From assembly GCA_963457535.1 (NCBI GenBank), contig OY734803.1, forward strand, positions 1,108,977 through 1,172,976: a stretch of 64,000 nucleotides of DNA. The letters are read 5' to 3'. A program made the position numbers and the translations under genes. The notes under the pieces are model-generated. The model searched no databases. It saw only the letters and a program-made list of their open reading frames with translations, and had not been told where the DNA came from. Origin of the DNA: Arenicellales bacterium. GTDB lineage: Bacteria; Pseudomonadota; Gammaproteobacteria; Arenicellales; Poriferihabitantaceae. This document shows positions 967 through 31,229 of this stretch, one piece after another (the stretch's first letter is position 1; every line of letters begins with the position of its first letter).

Positions 967-970
967 AATC

Positions 971-11373: not shown

Positions 11374-14358
11374 CTAGCCCGCGAAAATGCGCGCCGGGTC
11401 ATCCGTCCAATAGTGTTTGTATTTCTCCGGAACGCCGGACGGGTCATTGAACATGAACAACCTGACGCTGACGCGCTTTTGCTTTCCATGCTCAAATTTG
11501 TGCGGGTTCCGAACATCCCCAAACAGACGCTCATAGCCGTCGATTTTGTGTTGAGACGCGGTGTACACGGGCGTTTTCGGATCGACAAACACGATTCGGT
11601 ATTCGTTGTCGCGCCACATCCAAAAGACAAAGTCCGGCAGGAAGCGGCGGTATTCGTTTACCGAATGGTCATAGTAGGGAATGTGAATTTTGTCGACGCT
11701 CTCATCGATCTTGCTGAACATCCACGCGCGCCAGCCGGTGTCGCTTTTGGCGATCCACTCATCCAGCACATTGAGGAAGTCCACCTCGCTTCGGACTTTG
11801 ATGATGTGCTGCATGTAGTCGGTCGTTTCTTCGCCCAATATGATCGGCCGATAGTAGTGCTGAGCGAGCCGCTTGATTCGCAATTGCCGGAAAGTTTCTT
11901 CATCGGCCCCGCCGGCCCAGCGGTCAAACTCCTCGCGAACAATTTCCCCCTTCGCAAGTTTCTGGGCCAATGCGCTGATTTCTTCATCCGACGCCTTCCC
12001 TTTAATGACATTCCGGGCTTTTTCGCGCAGTTCTTCGACAAACTCCAGGCGCGCGCGGATTTCGCGGAAATGCACGATGTCCGCATTATCCGCGCTCTCG
12101 TCCAACTTCCGGACGCGGTCAAACGCCTTGCCGCTGCGCGAAATGTGCGCCAGCAACCGGCTTTGCAAAAAAGGCAGGGCGGCATATTCTTTTTCCGGGC
12201 GCTCCTCGGTCTTTTTCGGCTGCAGTATCCCGCGCAAGTCTTTGATTTGTTGCGCGTTCATTCCGTCGCGGACGGCGAACACGGAATCCGATGTCCGCGC
12301 AAGCCATTTCCCAAACCGTTCCTTCGTGGAACTGCTCATTGCAAACGGCGCTTGCGTCGCATCGCCGCGCGCCTCCTTGTAGTGCGGGACCAGCAAAGGC
12401 ATGCGCGCGCCGCCGACGGTCGGCCGCTTGGTCAGTTCAAAAGCATCCAGAATTTCCAGCGCGGCGCCTTTCTCCGCCTGCAGGCCATTAAGCACGGCGG
12501 AGACCGCTTTGCGGTTGGTGGCGAAAAGAAACAGCGTCTCCGGCGCCCTCGCCAATTTGAGATATTCTGCGAAATGCTCCCCGAACGCCCTCGCCTGTTC
12601 TTTTTTCAAATCAAGGCGGGACAAGCGGCGGCGCTCGCCGGAGAACGGCTCTATACGCACTCCGCGCCCGACCGACTGCACCACAAACTTTTTGGCGTCG
12701 CTTCCGCCGATGTTGATGAAGTTGATCACATTCGGGCGGTTGGAATCCCAACTCTCAAAGAAAGTACGGGAGCCCATCAGGATCGTAATCGGGCTTTCCT
12801 CCAGTCCGGCGAAAAACGACTCGTCACACAGCGCGCTGTTCTGTTCGTATCCGGCGAGAAAAGTATTGCGCCATTTTGCGGTGTTGCCGATGCGTATCAG
12901 CGCAAACGGCGCGTCCGCATTTTTCAGTTGGAACGCCAGTTCCTTATCGTCGTTGCTGCAGATATATTGCAGCGCGCTTTTGCCGCGGTTGAGAAAAACC
13001 GCCTCGCGCAAATCCTCCACCGACATCGCGGAAATCGCGGCGGTGTGAATTTCCCCCAACCCTCCGCCATTTTCGCCGAAGAGCAGCGGCGCGCGCTCCC
13101 ACTCGCGAACCAGCGCGCGCTTGGATTCATCAAACACCCGCGCGCTGATTTTTCCGGTGGCAATGTCCTGCAGGGTCTGAAAGAACGCCCACAAGTCATT
13201 GCGCCCGTCGGTCACATCGGTATTGACCGAGTTAACCAGCGTCAGCATCATCGGCGGATGGTAGAGTTTTTTGATGCCGGTCTTGTCGCGAATCGTGGCA
13301 ACACAGCGCACGACATGCGCGAGCGTTATCAGGGATTTCAAAACAATTTTCTGCCGCTCCGCCGGGCTGATCTCTTCCCGCCGGTTTTGGAATGCCGCGT
13401 ATTCCGATTCATTCAGGTAGATGCCCTTGCCGTGTCCGTTGGCAACAAACTCTTGGAGGTTGTATTTTTTGACGGTGGTAACGATGTCCACATCCTCAGT
13501 GAAAGTCGCGGAGAAATTAAACAGGAATCCCTCGCGCGCCATGAGCGCGTAATACGCCTGCCGCTTGGAATCATCCTTGCCTCCTTTGTGCGCCTCGTCC
13601 AGCAGCACATACCACTTGCCGCCGTTTTCATAGGTGCGGTAATCGGTCAGCGCCTCTTTTTGCACATCGGAAATGTTGTCGCTGCGGTGGTAATACACCG
13701 TGACCGAATCGCCAAGTTGGCTTTGATACGGCTGCCGGCCGGCCTCGCGCAGCGGCGCCAAATCAATCCGCAGGCCGCCGGCGCGGTTAAATTCGTCCAC
13801 GGTGCGGCGAATTTGCCGGAGCAAATGCGACGTTGGCGCGAGCAGGAGGATGTCGTGCGGCGGAATTTCGCGGCGCTGCCGGAGCGCATGCAGGTATTCC
13901 ATCAGTTTCACCATCACCAGCGTCTTGCCGCTGCCGGTCGCCATCCAGAAGCACATGCGGTTGATCAGGTGGTGATAGGGAATCGCGTCCCCCTGCGGCG
14001 CGATGAACTCGGAGAAAATCCGAAACATCGGGTTTTCTTTTTGGTTTTTTTCGTTTGCCGCGCTTTCATAGCGCGGTATCGCAAAATCGCTAAGTTGCAC
14101 TTGCCCGGTGCGCGAATACAAACCGGCAAAACTTTGCTTGCGGTTTTCGCTGTCCGCCGGAGTTTCGGCTGCCTGCCAGTCGTGGTCTTGCCCGTAGTAT
14201 CGGAACAATGCCCGCGCGGCTTTCTGCAGCGCGTCGATTTGGTAGCCGTAGAGTGTTTTTCCCGCGGAGAAGCGGTCGAGTTCGGGGATGCGCCAAACCT
14301 CCGGGAGGTCGGCGTAGTTTGCATTCTCGGCGATAGATTCGAGCAGCGGCAGAGTCAT
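11374..14358 (-). CDS. Type III restriction Res-like SF2 helicase with C-terminal PD-(D/E)xK nuclease
   Basis: Motif I ATGSGKT, motif II LLDEAHK, motif III SAT, motif VI QSVGRGVR. C-terminal LPDFVFW...IVFVDPK nuclease motif. ATGA overlap with the upstream gene. Confidence 0.85.
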   Translation of the reverse strand: MTLPLLESIAENANYADLPEVWRIPELDRFSAGKTLYGYQIDALQKAARALFRYYGQDHDWQAAETPADSENRKQSFAGLYSRTGQVQLSDFAIPRYESAANEKNQKENPMFRIFSEFIAPQGDAIPYHHLINRMCFWMATGSGKTLVMVKLMEYLHALRQRREIPPHDILLLAPTSHLLRQIRRTVDEFNRAGGLRIDLAPLREAGRQPYQSQLGDSVTVYYHRSDNISDVQKEALTDYRTYENGGKWYVLLDEAHKGGKDDSKRQAYYALMAREGFLFNFSATFTEDVDIVTTVKKYNLQEFVANGHGKGIYLNESEYAAFQNRREEISPAERQKIVLKSLITLAHVVRCVATIRDKTGIKKLYHPPMMLTLVNSVNTDVTDGRNDLWAFFQTLQDIATGKISARVFDESKRALVREWERAPLLFGENGGGLGEIHTAAISAMSVEDLREAVFLNRGKSALQYICSNDDKELAFQLKNADAPFALIRIGNTAKWRNTFLAGYEQNSALCDESFFAGLEESPITILMGSRTFFESWDSNRPNVINFINIGGSDAKKFVVQSVGRGVRIEPFSGERRRLSRLDLKKEQARAFGEHFAEYLKLARAPETLFLFATNRKAVSAVLNGLQAEKGAALEILDAFELTKRPTVGGARMPLLVPHYKEARGDATQAPFAMSSSTKERFGKWLARTSDSVFAVRDGMNAQQIKDLRGILQPKKTEERPEKEYAALPFLQSRLLAHISRSGKAFDRVRKLDESADNADIVHFREIRARLEFVEELREKARNVIKGKASDEEISALAQKLAKGEIVREEFDRWAGGADEETFRQLRIKRLAQHYYRPIILGEETTDYMQHIIKVRSEVDFLNVLDEWIAKSDTGWRAWMFSKIDESVDKIHIPYYDHSVNEYRRFLPDFVFWMWRDNEYRIVFVDPKTPVYTASQHKIDGYERLFGDVRNPHKFEHGKQKRVSVRLFMFNDPSGVPEKYKHYWTDDPARIFAG

Positions 14359-15353
14359 TTGGCTTTACCAATTCGAATGAGGATTCTTTCGGCCAAATTG
14401 CGAAAGTCTTTGTAACAACTCCGCACGGCATTTTGTTGCGCGCCGATCACACCATCAGCGGGTTTGAGCGCAAACATCGGTTTGTTCGCTTCTTGTGCCA
14501 GCGGCATCAGAGATCGGTAATCCTTCAAATGTGCAAGGCAATTTGAGTCTGCATCTATCGGCACGGAGCGGCCATGTTCTTCCTCAAGAACATGTTTCGC
14601 ATATTCCGCCGGCATTTTTTCGATCCATCGCAAATATGCCTTAACCGGACGATTGCGGATTGCAGTATGGCGCATGACGACATACCCGAGCGGCTGCATG
14701 CAGCCACCAGGCAATTTAAAACTCAGGTCATCGGGCTTCCGTTCGATGCGGTCAATCCAATCCGCGTGCCACTCACGCAGAGTCGGCCCCACATTGCGCA
14801 AACCCTGCAACGAAAACAAATCCGGTGCAAGCGGGATCACCACATAGTCGCTGGCAATCAGCGCAGAACGGTTGATTGCGCCAAGATTTGGGCCAACATC
14901 CAGAAGCGCCAAGTCTCTTTCGTGGCGCGCACCCACAGCGGCAATTTGCTCAGCAAAGGATGCTGTAAAACGCAGGGCACGCTCATTTTGGTTGCGCACC
15001 AGGCACCTGGGCCACTCCGCAGATAAATCATCTTCGATTGTGGAGAGCCGCAAATCCCCGACAAGCAACCCAATGCGCTCGTGCACCCCCAGAACGGAAG
15101 GTTTTTTTGTCATGTCCCCCGACCTGGCTTTAAACAGCGGTGCGATACTTCCATAGACCGTTTTTTCCTTTTCTTTTTCCCAAATCCTCTCCAAACGGGA
15201 CTCTTCCAAAAACATCCCACTCAGATTGGCTTGCGGGTCCAAATCAGCAGCGATCACTTTGTAATCGAGATCAGCAAACATGCAGGCGAGATGATAGACC
15301 AGCGAAGTTTTGCCCACGCCGCCTTTGTTGTTAAAAAATGCGATCGTTTTCAT
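14355..15353 (-). CDS. ParA/MinD-like P-loop ATPase (deviant Walker A)
   Basis: MKTIAFFNNKGGVGKTS...ADLDPQANLS. ATGA overlaps at both gene junctions. Confidence 0.8.
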   Translation of the reverse strand: MKTIAFFNNKGGVGKTSLVYHLACMFADLDYKVIAADLDPQANLSGMFLEESRLERIWEKEKEKTVYGSIAPLFKARSGDMTKKPSVLGVHERIGLLVGDLRLSTIEDDLSAEWPRCLVRNQNERALRFTASFAEQIAAVGARHERDLALLDVGPNLGAINRSALIASDYVVIPLAPDLFSLQGLRNVGPTLREWHADWIDRIERKPDDLSFKLPGGCMQPLGYVVMRHTAIRNRPVKAYLRWIEKMPAEYAKHVLEEEHGRSVPIDADSNCLAHLKDYRSLMPLAQEANKPMFALKPADGVIGAQQNAVRSCYKDFRNLAERILIRIGKAK

Positions 15354-16540
15354 GATTGTCGTTTGATCTTCACAAACACAAAGTTGCCTTCAACTCGAAA
15401 CTCCGGCGCAGGATTGCCATTCTCTCGCAACGCCTCGCGTGCGGCAGAAATGCCAAACCCAAAACTCTCCATAAACCCCAAGTTTTTCATCGCTGCTGAA
15501 ATTGTGGGATTGCGATACGCAGTGATCATCGGCTTGCCCAGGTCTTCGACTCGCAATCCGCCATGGATGGATCCCGGGCTGATGATCTCGATGCTACCAG
15601 AAAACCAATAAATGCGCACCGGGGCATTGTTGTTTTGATAGTCGCGGTGGATCACAGCATTGTGCGTCAGTTCACGCAGCGCTCGCTCGGGAAAATCAGG
15701 GCTCGCAATGTGTTTTGCTCCGCTTATATCCAGCGGGGCTTGAATGTTCAATTTCAGCAGACTGCCCAGTTCGCGCAGTTGTTCCGGCAAAGTTCCGCGT
15801 ATTTCCTTTTGGTCCACGACCGAGTCGGTAACTTCGTCCCCATCAAAGCGCACGAACTGAATGTATGCGCCGGGAAACCACTGTGCCGGATCGGTGCCCA
15901 GCATCAGAATTGCCGTCACAGTCGGCGTCCCTTCGGAAGTAACCAAGCGCGATGCGCGCAACTGATCAAACACACTGCGCTGATTTTCGACGAGCATTTC
16001 CGGCGACACCGCATGTAGCAGGTATTCACTTTCGAACTTCAGCATGTCCAGGTCGACATCCACCGATGCGCCACGCACTTCCTGCATGTCGTAAGAAACA
16101 TCTCTCAATTGCCGTTTCTCCGTCAGCAAACGTTCTTCCGAAGCGGAAGCCTGTTCGGTGCGCGGGCCGACGCGAACCCAGCACCGACTGTCCACTTTCA
16201 TCGGGGTATTGTCCGACGGCTCCACCTGTATCACAGCGATTCTGCATCCATTCAGAGTTCTCGCTTCTACGCTCATCACCGGGAAAGGGAGAATTTTCCC
16301 GTCTTTCCGCAATCCACCAAGTTTCTCCAGCAGTTCGGTGTCAATGCGCAGATTGGCGCAAGTCCTGTCATCGGCAATTCCGATGAAGAGAACGCCCGGC
16401 TTCCCGCTGGCCGGCAAGTCATTGGAGAAAGCACAAATCGCTTTCCGAAATTTTTCCAAATCAGTTGCCGACTGGGTGAACTCCGTGCGCTCGCTTTCGT
16501 GGTTGTCGATCAGTTTGATCAACTCGTCATCCGTCAGCAT
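15350..16540 (-). CDS. AlbA_2 (Schlafen-like, divergent AAA) plus HATPase_c_4-type putative DNA-binding/ATP-binding protein
   Basis: N-terminus ESERTEFTQS...KAICAFSNDL...GVLFIGIADD (AlbA_2 pattern). C-terminal half LRELTHNAVIHRDY...RNPTISAAMKNLGFMESFGFGI (RecG-like C-terminal ATP-binding module). Confidence 0.7.
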   Translation of the reverse strand: MLTDDELIKLIDNHESERTEFTQSATDLEKFRKAICAFSNDLPASGKPGVLFIGIADDRTCANLRIDTELLEKLGGLRKDGKILPFPVMSVEARTLNGCRIAVIQVEPSDNTPMKVDSRCWVRVGPRTEQASASEERLLTEKRQLRDVSYDMQEVRGASVDVDLDMLKFESEYLLHAVSPEMLVENQRSVFDQLRASRLVTSEGTPTVTAILMLGTDPAQWFPGAYIQFVRFDGDEVTDSVVDQKEIRGTLPEQLRELGSLLKLNIQAPLDISGAKHIASPDFPERALRELTHNAVIHRDYQNNNAPVRIYWFSGSIEIISPGSIHGGLRVEDLGKPMITAYRNPTISAAMKNLGFMESFGFGISAAREALRENGNPAPEFRVEGNFVFVKIKRQS

Positions 16541-16544
16541 CCCC

Positions 16545-18995
16545 TCACTCCCCCCACCACAAATACGGGCGGAGCAGCGACACGAAGCGCTGCTTTTCTT
16601 CCGCGGTCATTTTTGCCGGGTTGATTTTCTGCTCGCTACCGTCGGCGAAGACCACGCTGTCGGCGGTGCGGGCGCGGACGGGCATGCCGAGGGCATTGGC
16701 GAGGGTTTCGGCGATGTCAATGTCGGGATACATGCTGGGCAGGCCGTTTTCGCGGGTGATCGCAGGGGCGAGTTTATCATCTGCGAAGAAAACATACTGC
16801 GCAAACGGCGATTTTGCGCTGTCAATTTCCAGTTGCTCGCCGTCTTCGTAGCGGGCGTTGCGCAGGGTTTCTTCGTATTGTTCCAGCGCGTAATATTTGA
16901 ACGCGCCGCCGCCTTTGTAGTCGGTTTCTTTGCTGATGCCGGATTGGTGGCCGGACAGCACTTTTTTCATGCGCGGCAAAATCACGGTGTTGAAGTGGTC
17001 GCCCATTTCCACGCCCAGCCATTTTCGGCCGAGTTTTTGGGCGACTGCTTGGGTCGTGCCGCTGCCGGAGAAAAAGTCACACACGACGCCTTCGCCGGAA
17101 AACGCGGACAAACAACGCATTAAAAGTTCTTCTGAGTTTTCGGTTTTGAACTCCCACGCCCGAGTGTAACCGGGTATGTCGGTCCAATTATTTTTGAGGT
17201 TTCGCCAAAGCGGCCAGTATTTTGCGCGGCCATTTTTGATCTTGACGCGCTGATGTTCGGATAGTTCGTCAAGTTGAGCTTGCGAAAGTCCCCATTGCCG
17301 CCCTTTCGGCGCAAAGATTTCTTTTCCGCCAATAATGCGGGATTCAGGAGCGCCTTCGCGCGCGCCCCTTGCCGGCAGAAACGGTTCGTGCCAGACCTCA
17401 TCCCGTCGAGGAACACGCAAACGGTTGATGTTGGTTTTCCCGCTTTTTCCCGCCAGAAAAAGACTGTCCACATCGTTCATGAGTTTTCGCTGTAAAGGAG
17501 TCGGGCTCTTAAAAAACTCCTGGGTTCGATTGACGACAATTTCGTTCAAAAAATTGTCACTGCCGAAAATGCTGTCAAGCAAACAACGCACAATCCAATT
17601 CCCGTTGATGTCACAGCGCACGAAAATACCGCCGTCTTCGGACAGAAAATTCTGTGCAAGTTTCAGTCGGTTCTCCAGCATAGTCGCCCAGCACGAATCT
17701 TTGTAGTTCGTGCGGTAGTCAAACTGGTCGCTGCTGTCCAGATTAAACGGCGGGTCAATGTAAATGCATTTGACCTTTTCCGCATACCGTTTTTGCAGCG
17801 TATTCAAGGCCTGCCAGTTTTCGCCATGCACAAATTCGCCGTCCAGCGCTTCGTCCAGATTGCCCAGCGCGGCCAGAATGTCCAACTCCAGATTTTTGAA
17901 ATGCCGCGTGTCCAGCGGCAAAAACTTGCAGTCCTTGCGCGCGCCGGCAATTTCGCCGGCGGGAAACTTCCCGTCCACCAGACCGAGTTCCCGCCATTCT
18001 TCCACTTGCGCTTTTGCGCCTTTGTGGGCGGCGATCTTTTTCAGCAGGCCGGACTTCTCCGCCAGTTTGTCCAGCGTAACGACATAGTTGAGCCCGCGCA
18101 CAAATTTCGGCTTCTCCCATACGCGGCGCAGTTCATCCTCAAACTGCGCGATGAAATCAATGATGTCGTAGGCGGTTTTTTTGACCGCCTGCAGTTGCGC
18201 GACGCGATTTGCGCCAAAGTCGCTCTCCTCCTTGTAGAGGTATTGAAACATCCACAAGTCAAATTGCTCGCGCAAAAATCCCCCGGCGTCCTTGTTGATG
18301 AAAAAGTCGGCTTCCACCTGGCGGCGGAAAACATTGATCGCTTTTTGCAGTTGCTCCTCGGACAGCGAAACAATTCCGTTCTCGCGGGCTTTTTTGAGGA
18401 TGTCGCCGGTTTTGGTTTTGCCGCTCCCTTTTTTGTAAGAGACGGCGAGATGGACGACCTTGTTGCCGTCTTCGGACTTTACCGCGCCAAATTCAAAAAC
18501 GAATTCTTTGCGCTCGTTGTTCTGCTTGTTTTCCACGCCGGCGGCGTCAAAGAAAAAACGCCGGGTGTTTTGCGGCTTGCCTTCCTCTTCCAGCGTTACC
18601 GGCAGCGACTGCACCAGCACATCGGATTTGACATAGTAGAGATTGCGCGTCTTCCACGACAGCGCGACATCCTGGCCGTCCGCATAGACGCGCTCGTAAG
18701 TCTTGGCGAATGCCGGCAGGTGGCGGAAGTAGATGGAGCCGCTCTCGCAAAAGTAGCGGCTGAAAAAGTCGTGGAGTTTATCGAACAACTCCTCGCGAAA
18801 AGCCGAGTTCTTTTCGGCGCGCGCGTCAATTTTGGCGAGCAGTTTCGGGCGGAGCGATTGAAAGTGCTTGCGCTTCACCCGCATCAGGTTGACGAAGCCG
18901 GAATCGCCCTCCACTTCGGCGCCGGTGAACAGGGATTCCAGCGCGTCCAGAAAGCGCTTTTCCTTGGTCCCGCTTGTGGTGGTTTGGTCTGGCAT
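16545..18995 (-). CDS. Type III Mod-like beta-class DNA methyltransferase with long N-terminal extension
   Basis: Motif IV CIYIDPPFN followed by motif I DFFSGSGTTQAVA. The N-terminal DFFINKDAGGFLREQFDLWMFQY resembles a segment seen in large defence-associated MTases. Its stop and the next start are arranged TGAGGGGATG. Confidence 0.85.
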   Translation of the reverse strand: MPDQTTTSGTKEKRFLDALESLFTGAEVEGDSGFVNLMRVKRKHFQSLRPKLLAKIDARAEKNSAFREELFDKLHDFFSRYFCESGSIYFRHLPAFAKTYERVYADGQDVALSWKTRNLYYVKSDVLVQSLPVTLEEEGKPQNTRRFFFDAAGVENKQNNERKEFVFEFGAVKSEDGNKVVHLAVSYKKGSGKTKTGDILKKARENGIVSLSEEQLQKAINVFRRQVEADFFINKDAGGFLREQFDLWMFQYLYKEESDFGANRVAQLQAVKKTAYDIIDFIAQFEDELRRVWEKPKFVRGLNYVVTLDKLAEKSGLLKKIAAHKGAKAQVEEWRELGLVDGKFPAGEIAGARKDCKFLPLDTRHFKNLELDILAALGNLDEALDGEFVHGENWQALNTLQKRYAEKVKCIYIDPPFNLDSSDQFDYRTNYKDSCWATMLENRLKLAQNFLSEDGGIFVRCDINGNWIVRCLLDSIFGSDNFLNEIVVNRTQEFFKSPTPLQRKLMNDVDSLFLAGKSGKTNINRLRVPRRDEVWHEPFLPARGAREGAPESRIIGGKEIFAPKGRQWGLSQAQLDELSEHQRVKIKNGRAKYWPLWRNLKNNWTDIPGYTRAWEFKTENSEELLMRCLSAFSGEGVVCDFFSGSGTTQAVAQKLGRKWLGVEMGDHFNTVILPRMKKVLSGHQSGISKETDYKGGGAFKYYALEQYEETLRNARYEDGEQLEIDSAKSPFAQYVFFADDKLAPAITRENGLPSMYPDIDIAETLANALGMPVRARTADSVVFADGSEQKINPAKMTAEEKQRFVSLLRPYLWWGE

Positions 18996-20485: not shown

Positions 20486-21031
20486 GTGAATTCGGGCATG
20501 CAGTATATTATTTTTGGCGGCGCGCCGCCCGGCATAAAAGTGTTCTCCGAAGTTTCCACCGAATCCGACATTCACGCGGTCGCCGCCCTGGCGAACGAGA
20601 TTTGGCGCGAACACTACGAGCCGATCATCGGGCTGGCGCAGGTGGAATATATGCTGGAAAAATTCCAGTCGGCGGCGGCGATCGCGGCGCAGATTGCGGA
20701 GGAGGGGTTTTGCTATTACCTGATTCGCGCGGAGGGTCAGGGGGACATCGGCTATCTCGGCTTTCAGTGCGAGGGGGCGGTGATGTTTCTCAGCAAACTC
20801 TATGTGAAGAAATCGGCGCGCGGTCAAGGGGTTGGGGCGCGCGCGGTGGGGTTTTTGCGGGGGCTTGCGGGGGCGCAGGGAATGCAGAAAATTCGGCTGA
20901 CGGTGAATAAAGGGAATGCGCTTGCGATTGCCGCTTATGAGCGCGCGGGCTTTACTCGCACCGGGGAAGTGGTCATTGATATTGGGGGCGGGTATGTGAT
21001 GGATGATTTTGTGTTTGAGGTGGGGGTTTAG
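20486..21031 (+). CDS. GNAT-family N-acetyltransferase
   Basis: LYVKKSARGQGVGARAV (Q/RxxGxG/A acetyl-CoA motif) and AIAAYERAGF. The exact start is uncertain (alternative Met at MQYIIF). Confidence 0.75.
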   Translation: MNSGMQYIIFGGAPPGIKVFSEVSTESDIHAVAALANEIWREHYEPIIGLAQVEYMLEKFQSAAAIAAQIAEEGFCYYLIRAEGQGDIGYLGFQCEGAVMFLSKLYVKKSARGQGVGARAVGFLRGLAGAQGMQKIRLTVNKGNALAIAAYERAGFTRTGEVVIDIGGGYVMDDFVFEVGV

Positions 21032-21053
21032 GGGGATGGGGTATAATGGGGGT

Positions 21054-22556
21054 ATGAGTGCTGATGCAGACAAGGCGCGGGCGGCCGCGCGCGTGGAAAC
21101 CGTCAAAGCATTTATCGACTGGGCGGAAAAGCGCGGGGGGCGGTCGTTGCTCTACCGGGGACTTGCTGATGCCAACTGGGAGGTGGAATCCGCGGCATAT
21201 CGACGAATCAAAAAGCCGAGCGGGGCGAAACTCATCCCCCAGGAAATTCCCGGAGTGTTCAAAAACTACATCTCGCAATTGCTTGAAAAATCAAGTATGC
21301 GCGATTTTCGAATGCACGAAGGCAATGAACTGCCCGATCTTAAGTTGCTGGCGCGATTGCAGCACTACGGTGCGGCAACTTGCTTGATCGACTTCACTCA
21401 GAATCCTTTGGTGGCACTGTGGTTCGCTTGCCAAGAGCAACCGAAAAAAGACGGGAAAGTAATTGTCATGGATACAGGTGCGGATGTAACTATCCCGAAT
21501 CTGAGCAAGGTCGCGCAACGGGAGAGTGCATTTCACAAAGTCGGCCCGGAGCAACTCGCACTCAAAGAAGGCGAAATTGTAAAACTCCTCGGCGGTGAAA
21601 ATCTGTGGATATGGGAGCCAACTCCCCGGGAAAGCCGAGTCATCGCCCAACAGTCAATCTTTGTTTTTGGGCCGGCAATGATCGAGGAGCATGCAATGCT
21701 TGAAGAGCATTATGGGGAAGTTCGCATACCTGAATCTGCGAAAGAAAAAATCCTCCATGCACTGGACAAAAAGTTTGGGATAAATGAAGCGAGTTTGTTC
21801 GGCGATTTCGCCGGCTTTGCGCTCGCCAACGCGCATGACAAATCCTATGAAGAACACAGTGCGGATGACTACTTTGAGTTCGCTGAGTCATTTTTTCAAA
21901 GAGAAGACGCAAAAAAAGCAATACGCTATTGCGATAAAGCGATTGCGAAAAATAAGCGGCATGTCGGCGCGCACTATCTGCGCGGATTGTGCAATCGCCG
22001 TCTGGGGGAAATGCAGGAAAGCGTCAAAGATTTCTCACAAGCTCTTGAAGCCGATCCCGCGCATATGCCCTCTCTTTGGGAGCGCGCCTGGATGTATCTG
22101 ACCGCACTGAACAGAGCAGAAGACGCACTGGATGACTACAACACAATCATTGAGATTGCGTCAAACAACAAGCACAAGTACTACGACCGGCTGGCTCATG
22201 CATATAAGCGTCGCGGATATGCATACATGAATCTGAAAGGGTATCAGAATGCAGAAGATGACTTCACGAAAATTATTGAACTTTTTTCAAGCAGTGGGCG
22301 CAAAATTCGCCCTTGGCTGTTCGTATCCGCATATCAGGACCGTGGGCGCGTGCGGGCAGTTCGGGGAAATCATCAAGGCGCCATTGAAGATTTTACTTTC
22401 GCAATCCAGAGACACCCTGGACCTATCCTCTTTCGTGACAGGGCAAAAAGTTACCGTGCGCTGGGAGACGAAAGTGCTGCAAAGGCTGACGAAAGCAAGG
22501 CGGAAAGTATTATAGAAAGTGTCCGCCGACATCACGAGCGGTCGCGCGGTGCATAA
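21054..22556 (+). CDS. FRG-domain protein with C-terminal TPR repeats
   Basis: LLYRGLADANWEVESAAYRR and ARLQHYGAATCLIDFTQNPLVALWFA match the FRG signature as I remember it. The C-terminal ~230 aa shows TPR-like periodicity (AIRYCDKAIAKN..., AHAYKRRGYAYMNLKGYQNAEDDF...). Start placed at the Met following a TATAAT box. Low GC. Confidence 0.7.
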   Translation: MSADADKARAAARVETVKAFIDWAEKRGGRSLLYRGLADANWEVESAAYRRIKKPSGAKLIPQEIPGVFKNYISQLLEKSSMRDFRMHEGNELPDLKLLARLQHYGAATCLIDFTQNPLVALWFACQEQPKKDGKVIVMDTGADVTIPNLSKVAQRESAFHKVGPEQLALKEGEIVKLLGGENLWIWEPTPRESRVIAQQSIFVFGPAMIEEHAMLEEHYGEVRIPESAKEKILHALDKKFGINEASLFGDFAGFALANAHDKSYEEHSADDYFEFAESFFQREDAKKAIRYCDKAIAKNKRHVGAHYLRGLCNRRLGEMQESVKDFSQALEADPAHMPSLWERAWMYLTALNRAEDALDDYNTIIEIASNNKHKYYDRLAHAYKRRGYAYMNLKGYQNAEDDFTKIIELFSSSGRKIRPWLFVSAYQDRGRVRAVRGNHQGAIEDFTFAIQRHPGPILFRDRAKSYRALGDESAAKADESKAESIIESVRRHHERSRGA

Positions 22557-22586
22557 CTGCGCACTTTTACGGGCTATAATCGCGCG

Positions 22587-23927
22587 ATGAGCGTGAAGCC
22601 CAACACTTTGTTCACCGGCGACAATCTCTACATCCTCGCCGGCATGGACAGCGAGAGCGTGGATTTGATTTATCTGGATCCGCCGTTCAACAGCAAGCGG
22701 CTCTACAAGGCGCCCATCGGCAGCAAGGCGGCCGGCGCGGCGTTCAAGGACATGTGGAGTTGGGACGATGTGGATCAGGCGCGGCTGGAGTCGCTGCTGG
22801 AAGAGTACCCGTCGCTTTTTTATTTGGTGAGTTTCACCGGGCTTTCGCATTCCAAGGGAATGGCCGCGTATCTCCTCTACATGGCGCAGCGGCTGGTGGA
22901 GATGAAGCGTGTGCTGAAGCCGACCGGGTCGGTTTACCTGCACTGCGACCCGACCGCGTCGCATTACTTAAAGGCGCTGATGGACATGATTTTCGGCAAG
23001 GCGCAGTTTCTCAATGAAATCGTCTGGTATTACCCGGGCGGACTCAAGCGCGCCGGCAAGCAGTTTCCCCGCGAGCATGACATCGTGCTGTTTTATTCGC
23101 GCACGAGCGACCGCAGCCGCGTGTTTAACCTGCAGCGCCGCGAAGTTACGCGCGATGTCGCCTTGTGGCAGCGCTGGGGAAAATACAGCAGCGACAACCA
23201 AACCGTAAAGTTTGGTGAAATTCCGGTCACCGACAAGGTGAACCGGGAGCGCCAAATTAAAAAGTTTGCCAACAAACACGGCCGGCAGCCGAAAGATACG
23301 GACGTCGCATACACGCTTGAAGGCGCGATTGTGGAAAGCGTGTGGGACGACTGCCCGGCGGTGTACCGCAGCAGCGAGCGCACCGGCTACCCGACGCAAA
23401 AACCGCTCTCGCTGCTGGACCGAATTATTGAGGCATCCAGCAATCCCGGCGACGTGGTCTTTGACCCGTTCTGCGGCTGCGCGACCACATGCGTCTCCGC
23501 GCAAAACTTGCGCCGCAAATGGATCGGCATTGACATCAGCGAAGTCGCGGCCACGCTGGTTGCCGAGCGGCTGGCGGACGCGCACGGGAAAATCTTCACC
23601 AACTTCACGCACCGCAGTGATGTGCCGGTGCGGACCGACATTAAACTGGTGGACCTCAGCGTCCCCAAAACCAAAACGGCGATCAAAAAGCGGCTTTACA
23701 AAGAGCAGAAAGGCATTTGCAACGGCTGCCTGGTCGCGTTTGAAGCGCGCAATCTGGATATTGACCACATCATCCCCGAATCAAAGGGAGGCCCGAGCCA
23801 CTACGACAACTACCAACTGCTGTGCGGAAACTGCAACAGCATCAAGGGCAACCGCCCGATGGAATATTTGCGCGCCAAAATCAAGGCGCGCAACGACGCG
23901 CTGGACATGCAGGTCAGTTTCGGCTGA
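22587..23927 (+). CDS. beta-class DNA methyltransferase fused to a C-terminal HNH nuclease
   Basis: Motif IV LIYLDPPFN, motif I DPFCGCATTCVSA, then C-terminal CNGC...DIDHIIPESKGGPSHYDNYQLLCGNCNSIKGN (CxxC...H-N-H...CxxC). Confidence 0.8.
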   Translation: MSVKPNTLFTGDNLYILAGMDSESVDLIYLDPPFNSKRLYKAPIGSKAAGAAFKDMWSWDDVDQARLESLLEEYPSLFYLVSFTGLSHSKGMAAYLLYMAQRLVEMKRVLKPTGSVYLHCDPTASHYLKALMDMIFGKAQFLNEIVWYYPGGLKRAGKQFPREHDIVLFYSRTSDRSRVFNLQRREVTRDVALWQRWGKYSSDNQTVKFGEIPVTDKVNRERQIKKFANKHGRQPKDTDVAYTLEGAIVESVWDDCPAVYRSSERTGYPTQKPLSLLDRIIEASSNPGDVVFDPFCGCATTCVSAQNLRRKWIGIDISEVAATLVAERLADAHGKIFTNFTHRSDVPVRTDIKLVDLSVPKTKTAIKKRLYKEQKGICNGCLVAFEARNLDIDHIIPESKGGPSHYDNYQLLCGNCNSIKGNRPMEYLRAKIKARNDALDMQVSFG

Positions 23928-27673: not shown

Positions 27674-29287
27674 ATGAGCGCCAAAAAAACCACCACGAAA
27701 AATTCCCCGGCGGCATCTTCCGCAAAAAGCGCGGCCTCCGCGAAATCCAAAGATCCGCAGGAGCAGATTTACCAGCGGATTTTTTCCTACATGGACCTGG
27801 ACATGAACGGCCTGGTCAGCGTGGAGGAAATCCACAACACGCTGGCGGCGCGCGGCTACACGCCCGACAACCAGCGCGTCCGCGAGTTCTGCGAAAAACT
27901 CAAGGGCCTGAAGAAGGACAAAATTGATCTGCCCACTTTCAAGGAGATCGCCCGCAACCACATCATCTTGCTGGAGAAGGCGCTTTCCGGCGGGCTGGTC
28001 ATTCCCGACTTTCAGAAGTTCACCGAACAACTGGAAACAATGTTCGCCGAGGCGGCGAAAAACGACGGCGGGCAGGTCGCCGATTACATTCCGCAACTGG
28101 CGAAAGTTCCGCCGAAGAGTTTCGCGCTGTCGGTGTGCACCGTGGACGGGCAGCGCTGGTCCATCGGCGAGAACGGGGAATTTTTCAGCATTCAATCCAC
28201 CTCCAAGCCGTTCAGTTACTGCATCGCGCTGGAGGCGCACGGGCGCGACAAGGTGCACAAACATGTCGGGCGCGAGCCGAGCGGGCAGCGCTTCAATGAA
28301 ATCGTGCTGAACCGCAACGGCAACCCGCACAACCCGATGATCAACGCCGGCGCCATCGTCACCTCGTCGCTGGTGCGCCCGGAGTTGCCGCCGGCCGAGC
28401 GGTTTGATTTCTTCATCGGCGTGATACAGAAATTGTGCGGCGAAACCGGCGAGCCGGTGTTCAACAACGCGGTCTATCTTTCCGAGAAAGAAACCGCCGA
28501 TCGCAACTACGCGCTCGCGTATTTCATGCGCGAGAACAAGTCCTTTCCGAAGAACTTTGAACTGCAGGAGACCATGGACTTTTACATGCAGTGCTGCAGC
28601 GTGGAAATGAGTTCGGAAATGATGGCGACCGCGGCGGCGACGCTGGCGTTCGCCGGCATCTGCCCGACCACCGGCGAGCGCGTGTTCTCCTCGGGCGCGG
28701 TTAAGGACTGCCTTTCCATGATGTCCTCGTGCGGCATGTATGACTACTCCGGCGAATTCGCCTTTCGCGTCGGCATGCCGGCGAAATCCGGGGTCGGCGG
28801 CTGCGTCATCATCGTGGTGCCGAATCTTCTCGGCATGTGCATTTGGTCGCCGCCGCTGGACGAATACGGCAACTCGGTGCGCGGCGTGCAGATCTGCCAG
28901 GAGTTGGTGAACACCTACAACTTCCACACCTACGACTCGCTGATCAAAACCAGTTCCAAAAAGACCGACCCGCGCATGCGGCAGACTTCGTCGCAGGCGC
29001 AGAACATTTGGACCATGATCTGGGCGGCGTCGCAGGGCGACTTGGACGAGATTCGCCGCCTGGAGGCGCTCGGCGTGGACATCAACGAAGGCGACTATGA
29101 CGGGCGCACGCCGCTGCATTTGGCGGTCGCCGAGGGGCAGGCCGCGGCGGTGCAGCATTTCGTCTCGCGCGGCGCGCATGTGGATGTCAAGGACCGCTGG
29201 GGCGAGACGCCGATGCAGGAGGCGAAGCGGCAAAAGCGCGACGACATTATCAAGACGCTGAGCGGCGGCAAAAAAAGCGGCGGTTAA
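27674..29287 (+). CDS. kidney-type (GLS-like) glutaminase with N-terminal EF-hand-like bundle and C-terminal ankyrin repeats
   Basis: VIPDF...GGQVADYIPQLAK...SVCTVDGQR...REPSGQRFN...NPHNPMINAGAI...MPAKSGVGG, and a C-terminal GRTPLHLAVAEGQ...KDRWGETPMQEA ankyrin region. It is collinear with my recollection of human GLS over the whole length. Confidence 0.85.
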   Translation: MSAKKTTTKNSPAASSAKSAASAKSKDPQEQIYQRIFSYMDLDMNGLVSVEEIHNTLAARGYTPDNQRVREFCEKLKGLKKDKIDLPTFKEIARNHIILLEKALSGGLVIPDFQKFTEQLETMFAEAAKNDGGQVADYIPQLAKVPPKSFALSVCTVDGQRWSIGENGEFFSIQSTSKPFSYCIALEAHGRDKVHKHVGREPSGQRFNEIVLNRNGNPHNPMINAGAIVTSSLVRPELPPAERFDFFIGVIQKLCGETGEPVFNNAVYLSEKETADRNYALAYFMRENKSFPKNFELQETMDFYMQCCSVEMSSEMMATAAATLAFAGICPTTGERVFSSGAVKDCLSMMSSCGMYDYSGEFAFRVGMPAKSGVGGCVIIVVPNLLGMCIWSPPLDEYGNSVRGVQICQELVNTYNFHTYDSLIKTSSKKTDPRMRQTSSQAQNIWTMIWAASQGDLDEIRRLEALGVDINEGDYDGRTPLHLAVAEGQAAAVQHFVSRGAHVDVKDRWGETPMQEAKRQKRDDIIKTLSGGKKSGG

Positions 29288-29964
29288 TCGGCCGCGGGGG
29301 CCGCCACAAACGCGCGCATGTGAAAGGCCGCGTGCGGCGGCGCGTAGCGGTATGCGGAATGCGGGCATGCGCGGCGCGCTAGGCAGCCGCCGCGCATGCA
29401 GTCGGAGGCGCTTGATTCGCGCAAATAATTGAAGCAGGCGCGCGCGTCGTATTCGCGGCCGGTGAAAGCCGAAACCGGGCAGGCGCGCAGGCATGGTTTT
29501 TCCGCGCAATTGGCGCAGATGTCGGTTTTTAATTTCGCGGCGGATTGCGCCGGCGCATGCGCAAAAATCAGCGCGAAACGATAGGCGTGCCACAGCCCGA
29601 ACTCCGGGTGAATCAGCATGCCGAGCGCCGAGTTTTGCAGTCCGGCGCGTTTGCCCCAGCGGACGAACGGGCGGTGCGGCAGGCCGAACGGGAACACCGC
29701 GCGCGCGGAAAATTGCGCGGCCAATTCTTCGCCGATGCGCGCGCTCCAGCGGTTCAGCGGGTCGGGGTTGCCGTCGGCGAATTCGGGCGAGTCGCGGAAT
29801 GCGGGCCACATTTCGGAGCCGGCGTTGCCGATTAGGAACAAATGCGCGGCCGGTTTTTCACGGACTTTCGGGATTTCTTCGCGGGCATTTTCAGTCACGG
29901 CGAAATCGCCGAGGATGCGGAGTCCGTGGGGGCGGGTGGCGGAATGGAGTTTTTCGCGGGTCAT
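29284..29964 (-). CDS. 4Fe-4S cluster-binding protein (ferredoxin-like domain, QueG/RdhA-related)
   Basis: CANCAEKPCLRACP plus a downstream Cys-rich segment (CMRGGCLARRACP). The stop overlaps the convergent glutaminase stop. Confidence 0.5.
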   Translation of the reverse strand: MTREKLHSATRPHGLRILGDFAVTENAREEIPKVREKPAAHLFLIGNAGSEMWPAFRDSPEFADGNPDPLNRWSARIGEELAAQFSARAVFPFGLPHRPFVRWGKRAGLQNSALGMLIHPEFGLWHAYRFALIFAHAPAQSAAKLKTDICANCAEKPCLRACPVSAFTGREYDARACFNYLRESSASDCMRGGCLARRACPHSAYRYAPPHAAFHMRAFVAAPAAD

Positions 29965-29980
29965 TTGCGGCGGATTTTAA

Positions 29981-29989
29981 TGGTATTAT
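29981..29989 (+). promoter_or_regulatory. extended -10 element (TGgTATTAT) upstream of the orphan gene
   Basis: TGGTATTAT in an AT-rich divergent spacer, about 47 nt before the ATG at 30036. No convincing -35. Confidence 0.3.
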
Positions 29990-30035
29990 TCTCGAAATTA
30001 TTATTTGCTCACATCTCTGTCAATCAATCGGAAAA

Positions 30036-31229
30036 ATGGCTGCAACTGAAAAACCCAGCACGGTGCGCTTTGCCAAGGCGGTGGCGCTTCTTAAGCAAGA
30101 CATCGACGATCTCGAAAATGCCTTGCAGCAAGCAGGGGTTCCCGTCTTTGCGGAAATCGCCAGCCTTGAGGAAATCCCGAAAGCAAAAAGGAAAGACATC
30201 GAAAATCGACTGTGGCTGATATTGGCTTACGGTGAGTATCCCGTGGAAAAACTGTGGTCGGAAATGTGGTCATCATTGGACATGTTGCTTTCCATTGCAA
30301 AAAGCGACTGGCCTATCCGGTTCTACGCAACCAAATACAAAAAGGAATTTCGCCAAAAAATCAAACGCATTCTCGGTGCTGAAAATGCTCCTTCACGCAC
30401 TCACGTCGAACTGTGGATTGTGAAACAGGAAGTAGCTCCCATGGTGTTCCCCTTGCAGAGTTTCATCGACGAGGTCGACATCAATGACTACGTACATATG
30501 GCGCGAAATGGAATCTTACTGGATGAATGCATCAAACCCTACATTAACGCTCCCTCTCAGCATGCCCGTGAAGATGCCTCCATCTTCGAGAGCTTTCGCA
30601 AGATTGGGTCGGTTGCAGGGGACTATTACCTTCTGCTTGTTGATAAAGATCACGAGGGCAAACTGGCTTCTGACTACCGCGAACCCCGAACCTATTTTGG
30701 TAAGGATGGCCCCATCGAAGGGGAAGTGGAGTACGACAAAAAATGGATTGGGTTGCTGCAATACGATCTGTCCTCTTTCGATGAGATCATCCACAAGCGC
30801 TACTTTACTCCCGATGCCTGGGTGCAAAATGAAAGTAAACTTCTTCCAATCGCTATCACGGAAGAAGAGAAAAAGATACGGCCGCACATCCGCGAGCGAT
30901 TGCATGAGATTTATCATGCTTTCATTTTCAGCAACTGGATCGCAGTGGTTGCGCTGTCGCGCTGCCTACTGGAATATGCACTCGTCGACAAAGAGGATCT
31001 CCTCAAAATCAATGCTTACGAAAAAAATCAGCGAGTGAAGAGACTCTCTTGCTTGATTGCAGATGCCAAAAAAACCCGCCCCAAACTGGGAGGGTTTATG
31101 GCGCGCATAAAAGATGCCGGCGATGCTGTGATGCACCCGCAAAAAGACAGTCGCCTGCCCGACAAAGAAGCGGCGAGAAATTGCATCACTGACATCACCA
31201 AAATCGTAAGCGCCTTATACAGCGAGTAA
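30036..31229 (+). CDS. hypothetical protein; C-terminal ~110 aa is DUF4145-like
   Basis: Start set at MAATEKP, because the upstream part of the ORF is antisense to the Fe-S gene. Markedly low GC. The C-terminal RERLHEIYHAFIFSNWIAVVALSRCLLEYAL...ARIKDAGDAVMHPQ resembles the DUF4145 helical pattern. The N-terminal 280 aa is unrecognised. Confidence 0.55.
   Translation: MAATEKPSTVRFAKAVALLKQDIDDLENALQQAGVPVFAEIASLEEIPKAKRKDIENRLWLILAYGEYPVEKLWSEMWSSLDMLLSIAKSDWPIRFYATKYKKEFRQKIKRILGAENAPSRTHVELWIVKQEVAPMVFPLQSFIDEVDINDYVHMARNGILLDECIKPYINAPSQHAREDASIFESFRKIGSVAGDYYLLLVDKDHEGKLASDYREPRTYFGKDGPIEGEVEYDKKWIGLLQYDLSSFDEIIHKRYFTPDAWVQNESKLLPIAITEEEKKIRPHIRERLHEIYHAFIFSNWIAVVALSRCLLEYALVDKEDLLKINAYEKNQRVKRLSCLIADAKKTRPKLGGFMARIKDAGDAVMHPQKDSRLPDKEAARNCITDITKIVSALYSE

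What the first reader, a model, noticed from the sequence alone, without database searches (positions are those of the whole stretch)
21054..23927. FRG-TPR protein followed by a methyltransferase-HNH fusion: possible two-gene conflict module
Two same-strand, lower-GC genes 30 nt apart. The first combines an FRG domain (LLYRGLADANWE..., ARLQHYGAATCLIDFTQNPLVALWFA) with about 230 aa of TPR-like repeats. The second fuses a complete beta-class DPPF amino-methyltransferase to a C-terminal zinc-ribbon-type HNH nuclease (CNGC...DHIIPES...NYQLLCGNCNSIKGN). Modification and cleavage in one polypeptide, paired with a repeat-containing FRG protein, is not a textbook Type II arrangement. The upstream GNAT gene (20486-21031) is only 22 nt away and could belong to the same unit. 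Inference: a self-contained R-M-like enzyme whose activity or specificity is gated by the FRG-TPR partner.
Basis: partly seen in the sequence, partly recalled or inferred. Interest (0 to 1): 0.7.

Follow-up and report, generated by a model that had tools for sequence, protein, structure and literature searches.

The report
Two separable defence genes, side by side
An FRG-TPR candidate phage-defence gene sits next to a compact gene fusing a DNA methylase to an HNH nuclease; comparison with about 250 related loci shows the fusion normally works alone, so the pair is at most an optional partnership.

Summary
Gene A (21054-22556) is an FRG domain plus TPR repeats. Gene B (22587-23927) is a beta-class DPPF adenine methyltransferase fused to an intact zinc-HNH nuclease. 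The gap between them is 30 nt.

The methylase-HNH fusion belongs to a large family. It was solitary in 80 of 80 distant genomic loci and in 3 further contigs, with no FRG gene nearby. Elsewhere it rides as a passenger on IS1595 elements and forms tandem arrays. In those arrays the constant parts are 98-100% identical and the target-recognition cassettes are unrelated. Relatives carry T5orf172 or Mrr nuclease domains in place of HNH. It therefore looks like a self-contained, single-chain restriction-modification element that does not need FRG-TPR.

FRG-TPR matches PADLOC's single-gene defence candidate PDC-S15. It is hypervariable between near-identical strains: 53-66% identity against 93-99% for flanking genes. 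It also differs in composition from gene B and has its own TATAAT-N6-ATG start.

One result keeps a link open. In three other FRG lineages, an FRG-TPR gene directly abuts a methylase of the same family. A facultative guard or back-up relation (about 0.2) is therefore not excluded. I rate this a new variant of known kinds, of moderate interest.

The parts
21042..21047 (+). TATAAT box 6 nt upstream of the ATG of the FRG-TPR gene (putative own promoter, leaderless or near-leaderless start)
   Evidence: TATAAT-N6-ATG occurs only twice in the 64 kb, at the starts of these two genes; expected 0.03. A TATAAT is also present upstream of the FRG-TPR gene in L001.
21054..22556 (+). FRG-TPR gene, 500 aa (gene callers elsewhere start 6 codons upstream, at 21036)
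   Evidence: PADLOC PDC-S15 at 1.3e-32.
21087..21821 (+). FRG effector region (aa 12-256) with invariant YRG, LQHxGAATCLIDFT and AQQSxFVFG motifs
   Evidence: The PADLOC PDC-S15 model covers aa 12-256. Assignment to the ART superfamily comes from the literature only (PMC9503650).
21843..22550 (+). TPR region (about 6-7 repeats), the most divergent part between sister strains
   Evidence: Pfam TPR families. AlphaFold model with pLDDT above 90 and TPR superhelix matches. 58-83% nucleotide identity to L168, against 95-100% in the flanks.
22575..22580 (+). TATAAT box 6 nt upstream of the ATG of the methylase-HNH gene
   Evidence: Conserved in front of every methylase-HNH copy in L001, L002 and L168.
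22587..23927 (+). Beta-class N6-adenine methyltransferase fused to a C-terminal HNH nuclease, 446 aa
22677..22688 (+). Methylase motif IV, DPPF (aa 31-34)
   Evidence: Invariant D31 P32 P33 F34.
23029..23374 (+). Target-recognition cassette (TRD, about aa 148-263), the only part that differs from the 419-aa allele of sister strains
   Evidence: The flanking parts are 94.7% identical in DNA to L002, L001 and L168 copy 2, while this stretch cannot be aligned. The same pattern holds in the arrays of L003 and L004 and between L011 and L073.
23463..23489 (+). Methylase motif I, SAM-binding (DPFCGCATT, aa 293-301)
   Evidence: Invariant D293 P294 F295 G297 C298 A299 T300 T301; C296 is nearly invariant (at least 90%).
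23718..23855 (+). Zinc-HNH nuclease domain (aa 378-423): CxxC ... DH ... N ... CxxCN
   Evidence: Pfam HNH at 1.6e-11. Invariant residues. Alignment to Cas9, group II maturase and Gmet_0936 HNH domains. Foldseek match to the NmeCas9 HNH domain, rmsd 2.8 A over 81 columns.
20486..21031 (+). GNAT acetyltransferase: a neighbour, most likely host backbone and not part of the unit
   Evidence: 96-97% identical in L001, L002 and L168 and 90% in L163, while FRG-TPR is 53-66%. No PADLOC hit. Always paired with the divergent aminotransferase.

Best explanation
These are two adjacent but separable conflict genes in a small, strain-variable islet between a GNAT gene and an acyl-CoA-ligase gene.

Gene B is a stand-alone, single-chain R-M-type element. 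A beta-class m6A methyltransferase reads a DNA site through an exchangeable central TRD and methylates it. I infer that the fused C-terminal HNH cuts DNA at or near sites that are unmethylated, probably acting as a dimer because one HNH cuts one strand. Specificity changes when the TRD cassette is swapped by recombination within the nearly identical constant parts. The family spreads as a single gene, and in other genomes as a passenger of IS1595 elements.

Gene A is an independent, single-protein sensor-effector of the PADLOC PDC-S15 type. Its hypervariable TPR array is inferred to bind a phage or cell protein and switch on the FRG domain. The literature assigns that domain to the ADP-ribosyltransferase superfamily and predicts it to consume NAD+.

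Shown here: domain content, intact motifs, solitary distribution, TRD swapping, nuclease-fold swapping, hypervariability of A, and separate -10 boxes.

Inferred: cleavage of unmethylated DNA, NADase activity, and the sensing role of the TPR.
For: Gene B is autonomous.
- 80 of 80 genomic loci at 39-53% identity have no FRG gene within 7 kb.
- The relatives at 64%, 56% and 54% identity lie among housekeeping genes, one of them 4 nt after ftsZ.
- Recurrent neighbours are only IS1595 transposases (9 loci) and further copies of the gene itself.
- 38-nt inverted repeats enclose transposase plus methylase-HNH in L036.

Gene B looks like an R-M enzyme.
- Methylase and HNH residues are invariant.
- 80 of 89 copies keep CxxC..DH..N..CxxCN.
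- The C-terminal domain is replaced by T5orf172 in L038 and by Mrr_cat in L093.
- Viral relatives keep the methylase but lack the HNH in 77 of 80 cases.
- dN/dS is 0.08.
- The TRD is the only variable part in tandem arrays and between alleles.

Gene A is independent.
- It matches PDC-S15 at 1.3e-32.
- Relatives sit beside unrelated genes or other defence systems.
- It is 53-66% identical where flanks are 93-99%, and the drop is confined to 21000-22590.
- dS is 0.52 and dN/dS 0.43, against 0.04-0.21 and 0.06-0.15 for neighbours.
- GC3 is 0.525, against 0.783 for gene B.
- Each gene has its own TATAAT-N6-ATG.
Against: - FRG-TPR directly followed, on the same strand with a gap of 3 nt or less, by a methylase of the same family occurs in three further FRG lineages: L088, L093 and L103. 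In those loci the methylase is found at no other position. This is unlikely to be chance.
- Other FRG-TPR genes abut single-chain R-M enzymes or helicase-methylase systems.
- No member of the methylase-HNH family has been tested biochemically as far as I could find, so restriction activity is inferred.
- The ART fold of FRG was not confirmed here, because the fold search returned only TPR matches.
Confidence: 0.55

Rival explanations
1. A facultative two-gene unit in which FRG-TPR is an add-on to the single-chain R-M enzyme. It would act as a second-line abortive-infection effector, held or informed by the R-M enzyme through the TPR and released when a phage disables restriction. This is the logic of PrrC with EcoprrI. 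The R-M enzyme can live without it, but FRG-TPR of this clade prefers to sit in front of one.
For: - FRG-TPR then beta-methylase, abutting and co-directional, occurs in the window clade and in L088, L093 and L103. These FRG domains are only 35-41% identical to the window's.
- In L093 the methylase carries an Mrr-type nuclease instead of HNH, so the arrangement survives a change of nuclease fold.
- All 3 independent occurrences of this methylase family in about 0.6 Mb of FRG loci are at the +1 position.
- L101 has FRG-TPR overlapping the end of a Type ISP-like enzyme. L164 has it inside a helicase/DUF499/DUF1156 system. L108 has it before a ResIII helicase.
Against: - The asymmetry is strong: 0 of 80 genomic methylase-HNH loci plus 3 further contigs carry FRG.
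- Many FRG-TPR genes have only housekeeping neighbours.
- In sister strains FRG-TPR alleles differ by 34-47% while the methylase-HNH is unchanged.
- The same FRG-TPR-type locus tolerates one or two methylase-HNH copies with different TRDs.
- The -10 boxes are separate.
- Clustering of defence genes in islands alone explains part of the adjacency.
Confidence: 0.2
2. The methylase-HNH is not a restriction enzyme. It would be an orphan methylase whose HNH serves the gene's own spread or rearrangement, for example homing-type cleavage of empty sites, helping IS1595 elements persist, or starting the gene conversion that shuffles TRD cassettes. Alternatively the HNH merely replaces the non-specific DNA-binding C-terminal domain seen in CcrM.
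For: - Translationally coupled with IS1595 transposases in at least 7 loci, inside the element's inverted repeats.
- Insertions are precise, single-gene, and lie among housekeeping genes.
- Tandem copies show concerted evolution.
- The nearest HNH relatives are Cas9/IscB and group II intron maturases, which are nucleases of mobile elements.
- CcrM has a C-terminal DNA-binding domain at the same place (abstract of PMC6787082, listed).
Against: - Catalytic HNH residues are invariant, so the domain is more than a binding module.
- Replacement by two other nuclease folds is typical of restriction modules.
- Phage relatives drop the nuclease and keep the methylase, as expected if the nuclease is the host-side weapon.
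- Most copies have no transposase nearby.
Confidence: 0.15
3. One reading: FRG-TPR is a required regulatory partner that gates the activity or the specificity of the methylase-HNH enzyme, possibly together with the GNAT gene.
For: The genes are adjacent, co-directional and 30 nt apart, and keep this arrangement in five syntenic genomes.
Against: - Those genomes are one lineage, with flanks 93-99% identical, so they count as one observation.
- The enzyme family is solitary everywhere else.
- Specificity tracks the TRD cassette.
- FRG-TPR has no DNA-binding or regulatory domain.
- GNAT is conserved like the backbone and has no defence-library match.
Confidence: 0.05

Closest known systems
Single-polypeptide Type II R-M enzymes (Type IIC/IIG, e.g. 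MmeI, BpuSI, Eco57I)
   Same: Methylase and nuclease sit in one chain and one recognition module serves both. New specificities arise by changing the recognition module. The gene is self-sufficient.
   Different: From my own knowledge, those enzymes are about 900-1000 aa, with an N-terminal PD-(D/E)xK nuclease and a gamma-class methylase. Here the protein is 400-460 aa, with a beta-class methylase and a C-terminal zinc-HNH. I found no characterised member.
Beta-class N6-adenine methyltransferases CcrM, M.BceJIV, M.RsrI, M.MboIIA and Type III Mod subunits
   Same: These are the best sequence and fold matches for aa 1-335. They share the motif order IV ... TRD ... I. CcrM also has an extra C-terminal DNA-binding domain.
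   Different: None of them carries a nuclease domain. Identity is low (17-22% in the fold alignments).
Classical two-gene Type II systems with a beta-class methylase and a separate HNH nuclease (e.g. MboII; also window 1-1965)
   Same: The same two activities are present. The window itself holds such a split pair: a beta-class methylase at 1-966 and an HNH_2 nuclease at 1174-1965.
   Different: Here the two are fused, the HNH is of the Cas9/IscB/McrA zinc type (PF01844) rather than HNH_2, and no separate recognition domain for the nuclease exists.
PADLOC PDC-S15 / FRG-domain proteins (Frg clade of the ART superfamily, Burroughs & Aravind 2020 as cited in PMC9503650)
   Same: Gene A matches 14 PDC-S15 models, the best at 1.3e-32. 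The literature predicts an anti-viral effector, possibly an NADase.
   Different: PDC-S15 is a candidate, not a tested system as far as I could find. The TPR fusion and its hypervariability are features of this sub-family.
PrrC with the EcoprrI R-M system (an abortive-infection effector embedded in, and silenced by, an R-M enzyme)
   Same: A suicide-type effector gene lies directly beside an R-M enzyme gene. This gives a precedent for a guard relation.
   Different: From my own knowledge, PrrC is an anticodon nuclease inside a Type Ic hsd operon. No interaction or trigger is shown here, and the linkage is facultative.
IS1595-family insertion sequences carrying passenger genes
   Same: In L036, L073 and L011 the methylase-HNH gene lies between the transposase gene and the right inverted repeat.
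   Different: The window copy has no transposase and no such inverted repeats. I found no report of a methylase-HNH passenger.

Membership tests
Single-polypeptide (Type IIC-like) R-M enzyme | DNA methyltransferase catalytic and SAM-binding motifs intact | tested here: met
   N6_N4_Mtase at 6.5e-45. DPPF and FxGxG-type motifs are invariant in 20 members. Fold matches to CcrM, RsrI and Mod.
Single-polypeptide (Type IIC-like) R-M enzyme | Nuclease domain with intact catalytic residues in the same polypeptide | tested here: met
   HNH at 1.6e-11. D393, H394, N408, N417 and four Cys are invariant. They align to the active Cas9 HNH. 80 of 89 family copies keep the signature.
Single-polypeptide (Type IIC-like) R-M enzyme | Self-sufficient: no separate partner gene conserved | tested here: met
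   No conserved neighbour in 80 loci apart from IS1595 transposases and paralogous copies. Solitary.
Single-polypeptide (Type IIC-like) R-M enzyme | Sequence-specific cleavage of unmethylated DNA and protection by its own methylation | not testable with these tools
   Needs expression, methylome mapping and cleavage assays. REBASE was not available.
MmeI-type Type IIG/IIL enzymes | N-terminal PD-(D/E)xK nuclease, gamma-class methylase, C-terminal TRD, about 100 kDa | tested here: not met
   446 aa, beta-class motif order, C-terminal HNH.
PADLOC PDC-S15 (FRG-domain single-gene defence candidate) | Match to the PDC-S15 profile over most of its length | tested here: met
   PDLC04938 at 1.3e-32, aa 12-256 on profile positions 43-263 of 276, plus 13 further PDC-S15 models. 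Pfam FRG at 8.9e-18.
PADLOC PDC-S15 (FRG-domain single-gene defence candidate) | Protects against phage when expressed alone | not testable with these tools
   No experimental report was found in the library.
ADP-ribosyltransferase (ART) superfamily, Frg clade | ART fold and an NAD+-binding catalytic constellation | tested here: inconclusive
   The model is good (pLDDT 83), but the PDB fold search returned only TPR matches. The assignment rests on PMC9503650. The primary paper, PMC7685563, is not held.
   0 of 80 loci. 0 of 3 further contigs. 0 of 80 viral loci.
   Of the 80 FRG loci fetched (fewer once duplicate contigs are set aside), three independent loci carry a methylase of the same family at +1: L088, L093 and L103 (L094 duplicates L093). 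Other loci have other R-M types or housekeeping neighbours.
IS1595-family transporter element | DDE_Tnp_IS1595 transposase and terminal inverted repeats around the gene | tested here: not met
   Met in L036 and L073, but the window copy has neither.

The most novel reading that the evidence does not exclude
FRG-TPR and beta-methylase-nuclease fusions form a recurrent, facultative two-gene defence unit. A compact single-chain R-M enzyme, with an HNH, Mrr-type or T5orf172 nuclease, is backed up or monitored by an ART-fold, NAD+-targeting effector whose hypervariable TPR array senses phage interference. This would be a PrrC/EcoprrI-like guard built from entirely different parts. The methylase-HNH family itself would be an uncharacterised class of miniature R-M enzymes that multiply their specificities through tandem TRD-cassette arrays and travel on IS1595 elements.
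Probability: 0.2. Interest if true: 0.7.

Novelty: new variant of a known kind. Interest (0 to 1): 0.5.

Why it matters
If the methylase-HNH fusions are active, they would be unusually small single-chain restriction-modification enzymes (400-460 aa). Each has a plug-in recognition cassette. That makes them attractive for understanding how specificity evolves, and possibly as programmable methylase or nuclease scaffolds.

The family is large: about 600 clusters at 50% identity for the HNH tail alone. Judging by record titles, it is concentrated in uncultured symbionts of sponges and termites, where restriction barriers are thought to shape gene flow.

The FRG-TPR gene offers a natural case of extreme allelic diversity at a fixed locus in near-identical strains. 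This is the signature expected of a direct phage sensor. A test of whether it guards R-M enzymes would extend the guard concept in bacterial immunity.

For the scan itself, the lesson is that adjacency within one lineage is not evidence of a module.

Tried and rejected
1. Fold search of the FRG-TPR model, to test the ART fold.
2. The methylase-HNH model was only moderate (pLDDT 61). It confirmed the two folds but says nothing on domain arrangement.
3. Literature searches for a characterised methylase-HNH fusion, for an IS1595 passenger of this kind and for sponge-symbiont reports found nothing specific.
4. The primary paper on the Frg domain (PMC7685563) is not held.
5. Phage and plasmid collections match only the methylase part.
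6. I looked for IS ends, flanking repeats and tRNA integration sites around the window pair and found none of note.
7. The generic promoter/terminator scan was not above shuffled expectation. The TATAAT-N6-ATG pattern came from reading the sequence.
8. Matching contig lengths between the two homologue lists first suggested conserved linkage. These contigs turned out to be syntenic sister genomes, so I rejected them as independent evidence.
9. I first read the difference between the 446- and 419-aa proteins as a simple TRD swap. L168 shows that both alleles can sit in tandem.
10. One NJ-tree script timed out. I used pairwise identities instead.
Full report
**1. The observation**

The first runs 21003/21054-22556 (+) and the second 22587-23927 (+), with 30 nt between them. 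A GNAT gene ends 22 nt upstream of 21054.

Pfam finds FRG (8.9e-18) plus TPR families (TPR_1 at 1.1e-21, aa 264-453) in the first. It finds N6_N4_Mtase (6.5e-45, aa 25-324) plus HNH (1.6e-11, aa 378-423) in the second.

In an alignment of 20 family members the following are invariant:
- methylase motif IV, DPPF (aa 31-34);
- methylase motif I, DPFCGCATT (aa 293-301), with C296 nearly invariant;
- the HNH constellation C378, C381, D393, H394, N408, C413, C416, N417.

The HNH aligns residue for residue with the HNH domains of a Cas9 (Csn1-family) protein, a group II intron maturase and the HNH endonuclease 4h9d. The predicted structure matches CcrM, RsrI and Mod methylases and the NmeCas9 HNH domain. 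The HNH is therefore not degenerate.

One correction concerns composition. Only FRG-TPR is strongly atypical (GC 0.509, GC3 0.525). The methylase-HNH gene has GC 0.580 but a host-like GC3 of 0.783, against 0.77-0.86 for the flanks.

**2. Surroundings**

The pair lies between a divergent aminotransferase/GNAT pair and an AMP-dependent ligase. Upstream, at 11374-18995 (-), is a Type III-like R-M island holding Mod, a Schlafen/AlbA_2 protein, a ParA-like ATPase and Res.

Four contigs from sister genomes (L001, L002, L163, L168) share the backbone at 93-99% protein identity; in the more distant L163 NnrU is 80% and GNAT 90%. They show that everything foreign here is variable:
- The Type III island is absent, partial or different.
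- The methylase-HNH locus holds the 446-aa allele (window), a 419-aa allele (L001, L002), or both in tandem (L168).
- FRG-TPR is only 53-66% identical.

The drop in DNA identity is confined to 21000-22590 and has sharp edges.

Between the window and L168, FRG-TPR has dS 0.52, dN 0.22 and dN/dS 0.43. Neighbouring genes have dS 0.04-0.21 and dN/dS 0.06-0.15, and the methylase-HNH has dN/dS 0.08. FRG-TPR is thus a long-diverged, fast-evolving allele series at a fixed locus, while the methylase-HNH is under strong constraint.

The 446- and 419-aa alleles are 94.7% identical in DNA on both sides of a 345-nt stretch (23029-23374) that cannot be aligned. That stretch is the TRD.

**3. The methylase-HNH family elsewhere**

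More than 120 full-length homologues at 50% identity or more carry the same architecture. The linker plus HNH tail alone finds 614 cluster representatives at E of 1e-10 or better.

Of these, 596 encode relatives and the best 80 were kept. Judging by record titles, these are mostly MAGs of taxa typical of sponge symbionts, such as Poribacteria, Dehalococcoidia and Poriferihabitaceae.

An HMM of the FRG domain finds no FRG gene within 7 kb in any of the 80. It does recover the positive controls. The closer relatives at 64%, 56% and 54% identity are also solitary among housekeeping genes, one of them 4 nt after ftsZ.

Only two kinds of neighbour recur:
- IS1595-family transposases, in 9 loci. They are mostly directly upstream, co-directional and overlapping.
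- Further copies of the gene itself.

In L036, 38-nt inverted repeats enclose transposase plus methylase-HNH. L073 has matching ends. L011 and L073 are 96-98% identical across the element except in the TRD.

In the tandem arrays of L003 (3 copies) and L004 (4 copies), the N- and C-terminal parts are 98-100% identical and the TRD is 14-50% identical.

Of 89 family ORFs in these loci, 80 keep the full HNH signature. The two copies in L038 carry a T5orf172 domain instead. A relative in L093 carries an Mrr_cat/NA-iREase1 domain.

In IMG/VR, 77 of the 80 best viral relatives lack the HNH. Phage and plasmid records match only the methylase part.

Several points together make a self-contained, single-chain R-M-type element the best reading:
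- interchange of three nuclease folds at the same position;
- invariant catalytic residues;
- a recognition cassette that is the sole variable part;
- loss of the nuclease in viruses.

Cleavage itself is inferred, not shown.

**4. FRG-TPR elsewhere**

The protein matches 14 PADLOC PDC-S15 models (best 1.3e-32). PDC-S15 is a candidate single-gene defence system. More than 120 FRG-TPR homologues exist, and none was found in IMG/VR.

The literature assigns the Frg domain to the ART superfamily and predicts an anti-viral effector, possibly an NADase (PMC9503650). I could not confirm the fold, because the TPR half dominated the fold search.

The contexts of 80 metagenomic FRG loci and 5 further contigs are mixed. 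Many are housekeeping. Several are defence islands with Type ISP-like, Type IIG/I-like, DUF1156/DUF499, paraMORC, Vsr, SIR2 or reverse-transcriptase genes.

One pattern stands out. In L088, L093 (L094 is the same sequence) and L103, FRG-TPR is directly followed by a methylase of the same family as gene B. It lies on the same strand with a gap of 3 nt or less, or an overlap. Identity to gene B is 40% in L093. These FRG domains are only 35-41% identical to the window's. They fall in at least two further lineages.

In about 0.6 Mb of FRG loci, this methylase family occurs nowhere except at that +1 position. My rough estimate, for three independent hits placed at random among about 14 genes on two strands, is below 1e-3. 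I read this as a real affinity that is facultative and one-sided.

**5. Expression signals**

TATAAT-N6-ATG occurs exactly twice in the 64 kb, at 21042 and 22575. These are the starts of the two genes (expected 0.03). The motif is conserved in front of every methylase-HNH copy of the sister genomes.

This supports 21054 as the start of gene A. It also suggests that each gene has its own promoter and a very short or absent leader. That fits two separately expressed genes, although read-through is not excluded.

**6. Verdict**

Gene B is plausibly a complete R-M-like enzyme in one chain. The idea that FRG-TPR gates it is contradicted by four findings: the family's solitary distribution, the TRD-borne specificity, the discordant evolution and composition of the two genes, and their separate start signals. 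GNAT behaves as backbone.

My confidences are:
- Two separable genes, best explanation: 0.55.
- Facultative guard or back-up relation, in which FRG-TPR exploits or monitors single-chain R-M enzymes: 0.2.
- HNH serves mobility rather than restriction: 0.15.

Each component belongs to a known kind: a combined R-M enzyme, and a PDC-S15 candidate. Three things appear undescribed in the literature I could search: the beta-methylase/C-terminal HNH format, its TRD-cassette arrays and IS1595 carriage, and the hypervariable FRG-TPR allele series. I therefore rate it a new variant of a known kind, with interest 0.5.

Noticed in passing
window 1-966 (+) and 1174-1965 (+): A conventional split R-M pair in a low-GC stretch. 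It consists of a beta-class N6_N4 methylase (cut by the window start, 3.4e-52) followed by a separate HNH_2 nuclease (3.7e-13). It is a useful internal comparator for the fused gene.
   Followed up: partly
window 11374-18995 (-): A Type III-like R-M island: Mod of 816 aa (PADLOC MTase_III at 1e-235) and a ResIII helicase of 994 aa. A Schlafen/AlbA_2-HATPase_c_4 gene and a ParA-like AAA_31 gene are inserted between them. Sister genomes carry none of it (L163), only Res+Mod at 55-70% identity (L001), or only the two inserted genes (L002, L168).
   Followed up: partly
L036 5921-8401; L073 5989-8199; L011 5992-8231: IS1595-family elements whose inverted repeats (GGGAATTATAT...) enclose the transposase gene plus a translationally coupled methylase-HNH passenger gene. 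L011 and L073 are 96-98% identical except for the TRD.
   Followed up: partly
L003 3-3738; L004 6959-12879; L168 6485-9257: Tandem arrays of 3, 4 and 2 methylase-HNH genes. The constant parts are 98-100% identical (95% at DNA level in L168) and the TRDs are unrelated. This points to concerted evolution with cassette diversification.
   Followed up: yes
L038 5551-8356; L093 8541-10070: The same methylase family with other C-terminal nuclease folds: T5orf172/MUG113 (two tandem copies in L038) and Mrr_cat/NA-iREase1 (L093, directly after an FRG-TPR gene).
   Followed up: yes
L168 7826-7962: The spacer between the two methylase-HNH copies repeats about 137 nt that in the window lie just downstream of the single copy, at the 3' end of the AMP-ligase gene. 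The two-copy state therefore arose by a segmental duplication or an unequal exchange between alleles.
   Followed up: no
window 21042-21056 and 22575-22589: The only two TATAAT-N6-ATG matches in 64 kb sit at the starts of the two genes of the finding (expected 0.03). This suggests leaderless or near-leaderless transcripts.
   Followed up: partly
window 29493-31229 (+): A 578-aa ORF without any Pfam match, in the lowest-GC stretch of the window (0.48 at 30-31 kb). The syntenic region of sister genomes holds other unannotated ORFs.
   Followed up: no
window 27674-29287 (+): In the syntenic sister loci this gene encodes a glutaminase fused to ankyrin repeats and an EF-hand-like N-terminus. This is a eukaryote-like architecture that fits a host-associated lifestyle.
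   Followed up: no
L164 203-11009; L171; L172: FRG-TPR genes embedded in other defence islands. In L164 the gene lies between an SNF2/NOV_C helicase and a DUF499/DUF1828-1829/DUF6978/DUF1156 system. In L171 and L172 it lies near Type IIG/I-like methylases, Vsr, paraMORC two-component genes, a C5 methylase and a reverse transcriptase.
   Followed up: partly
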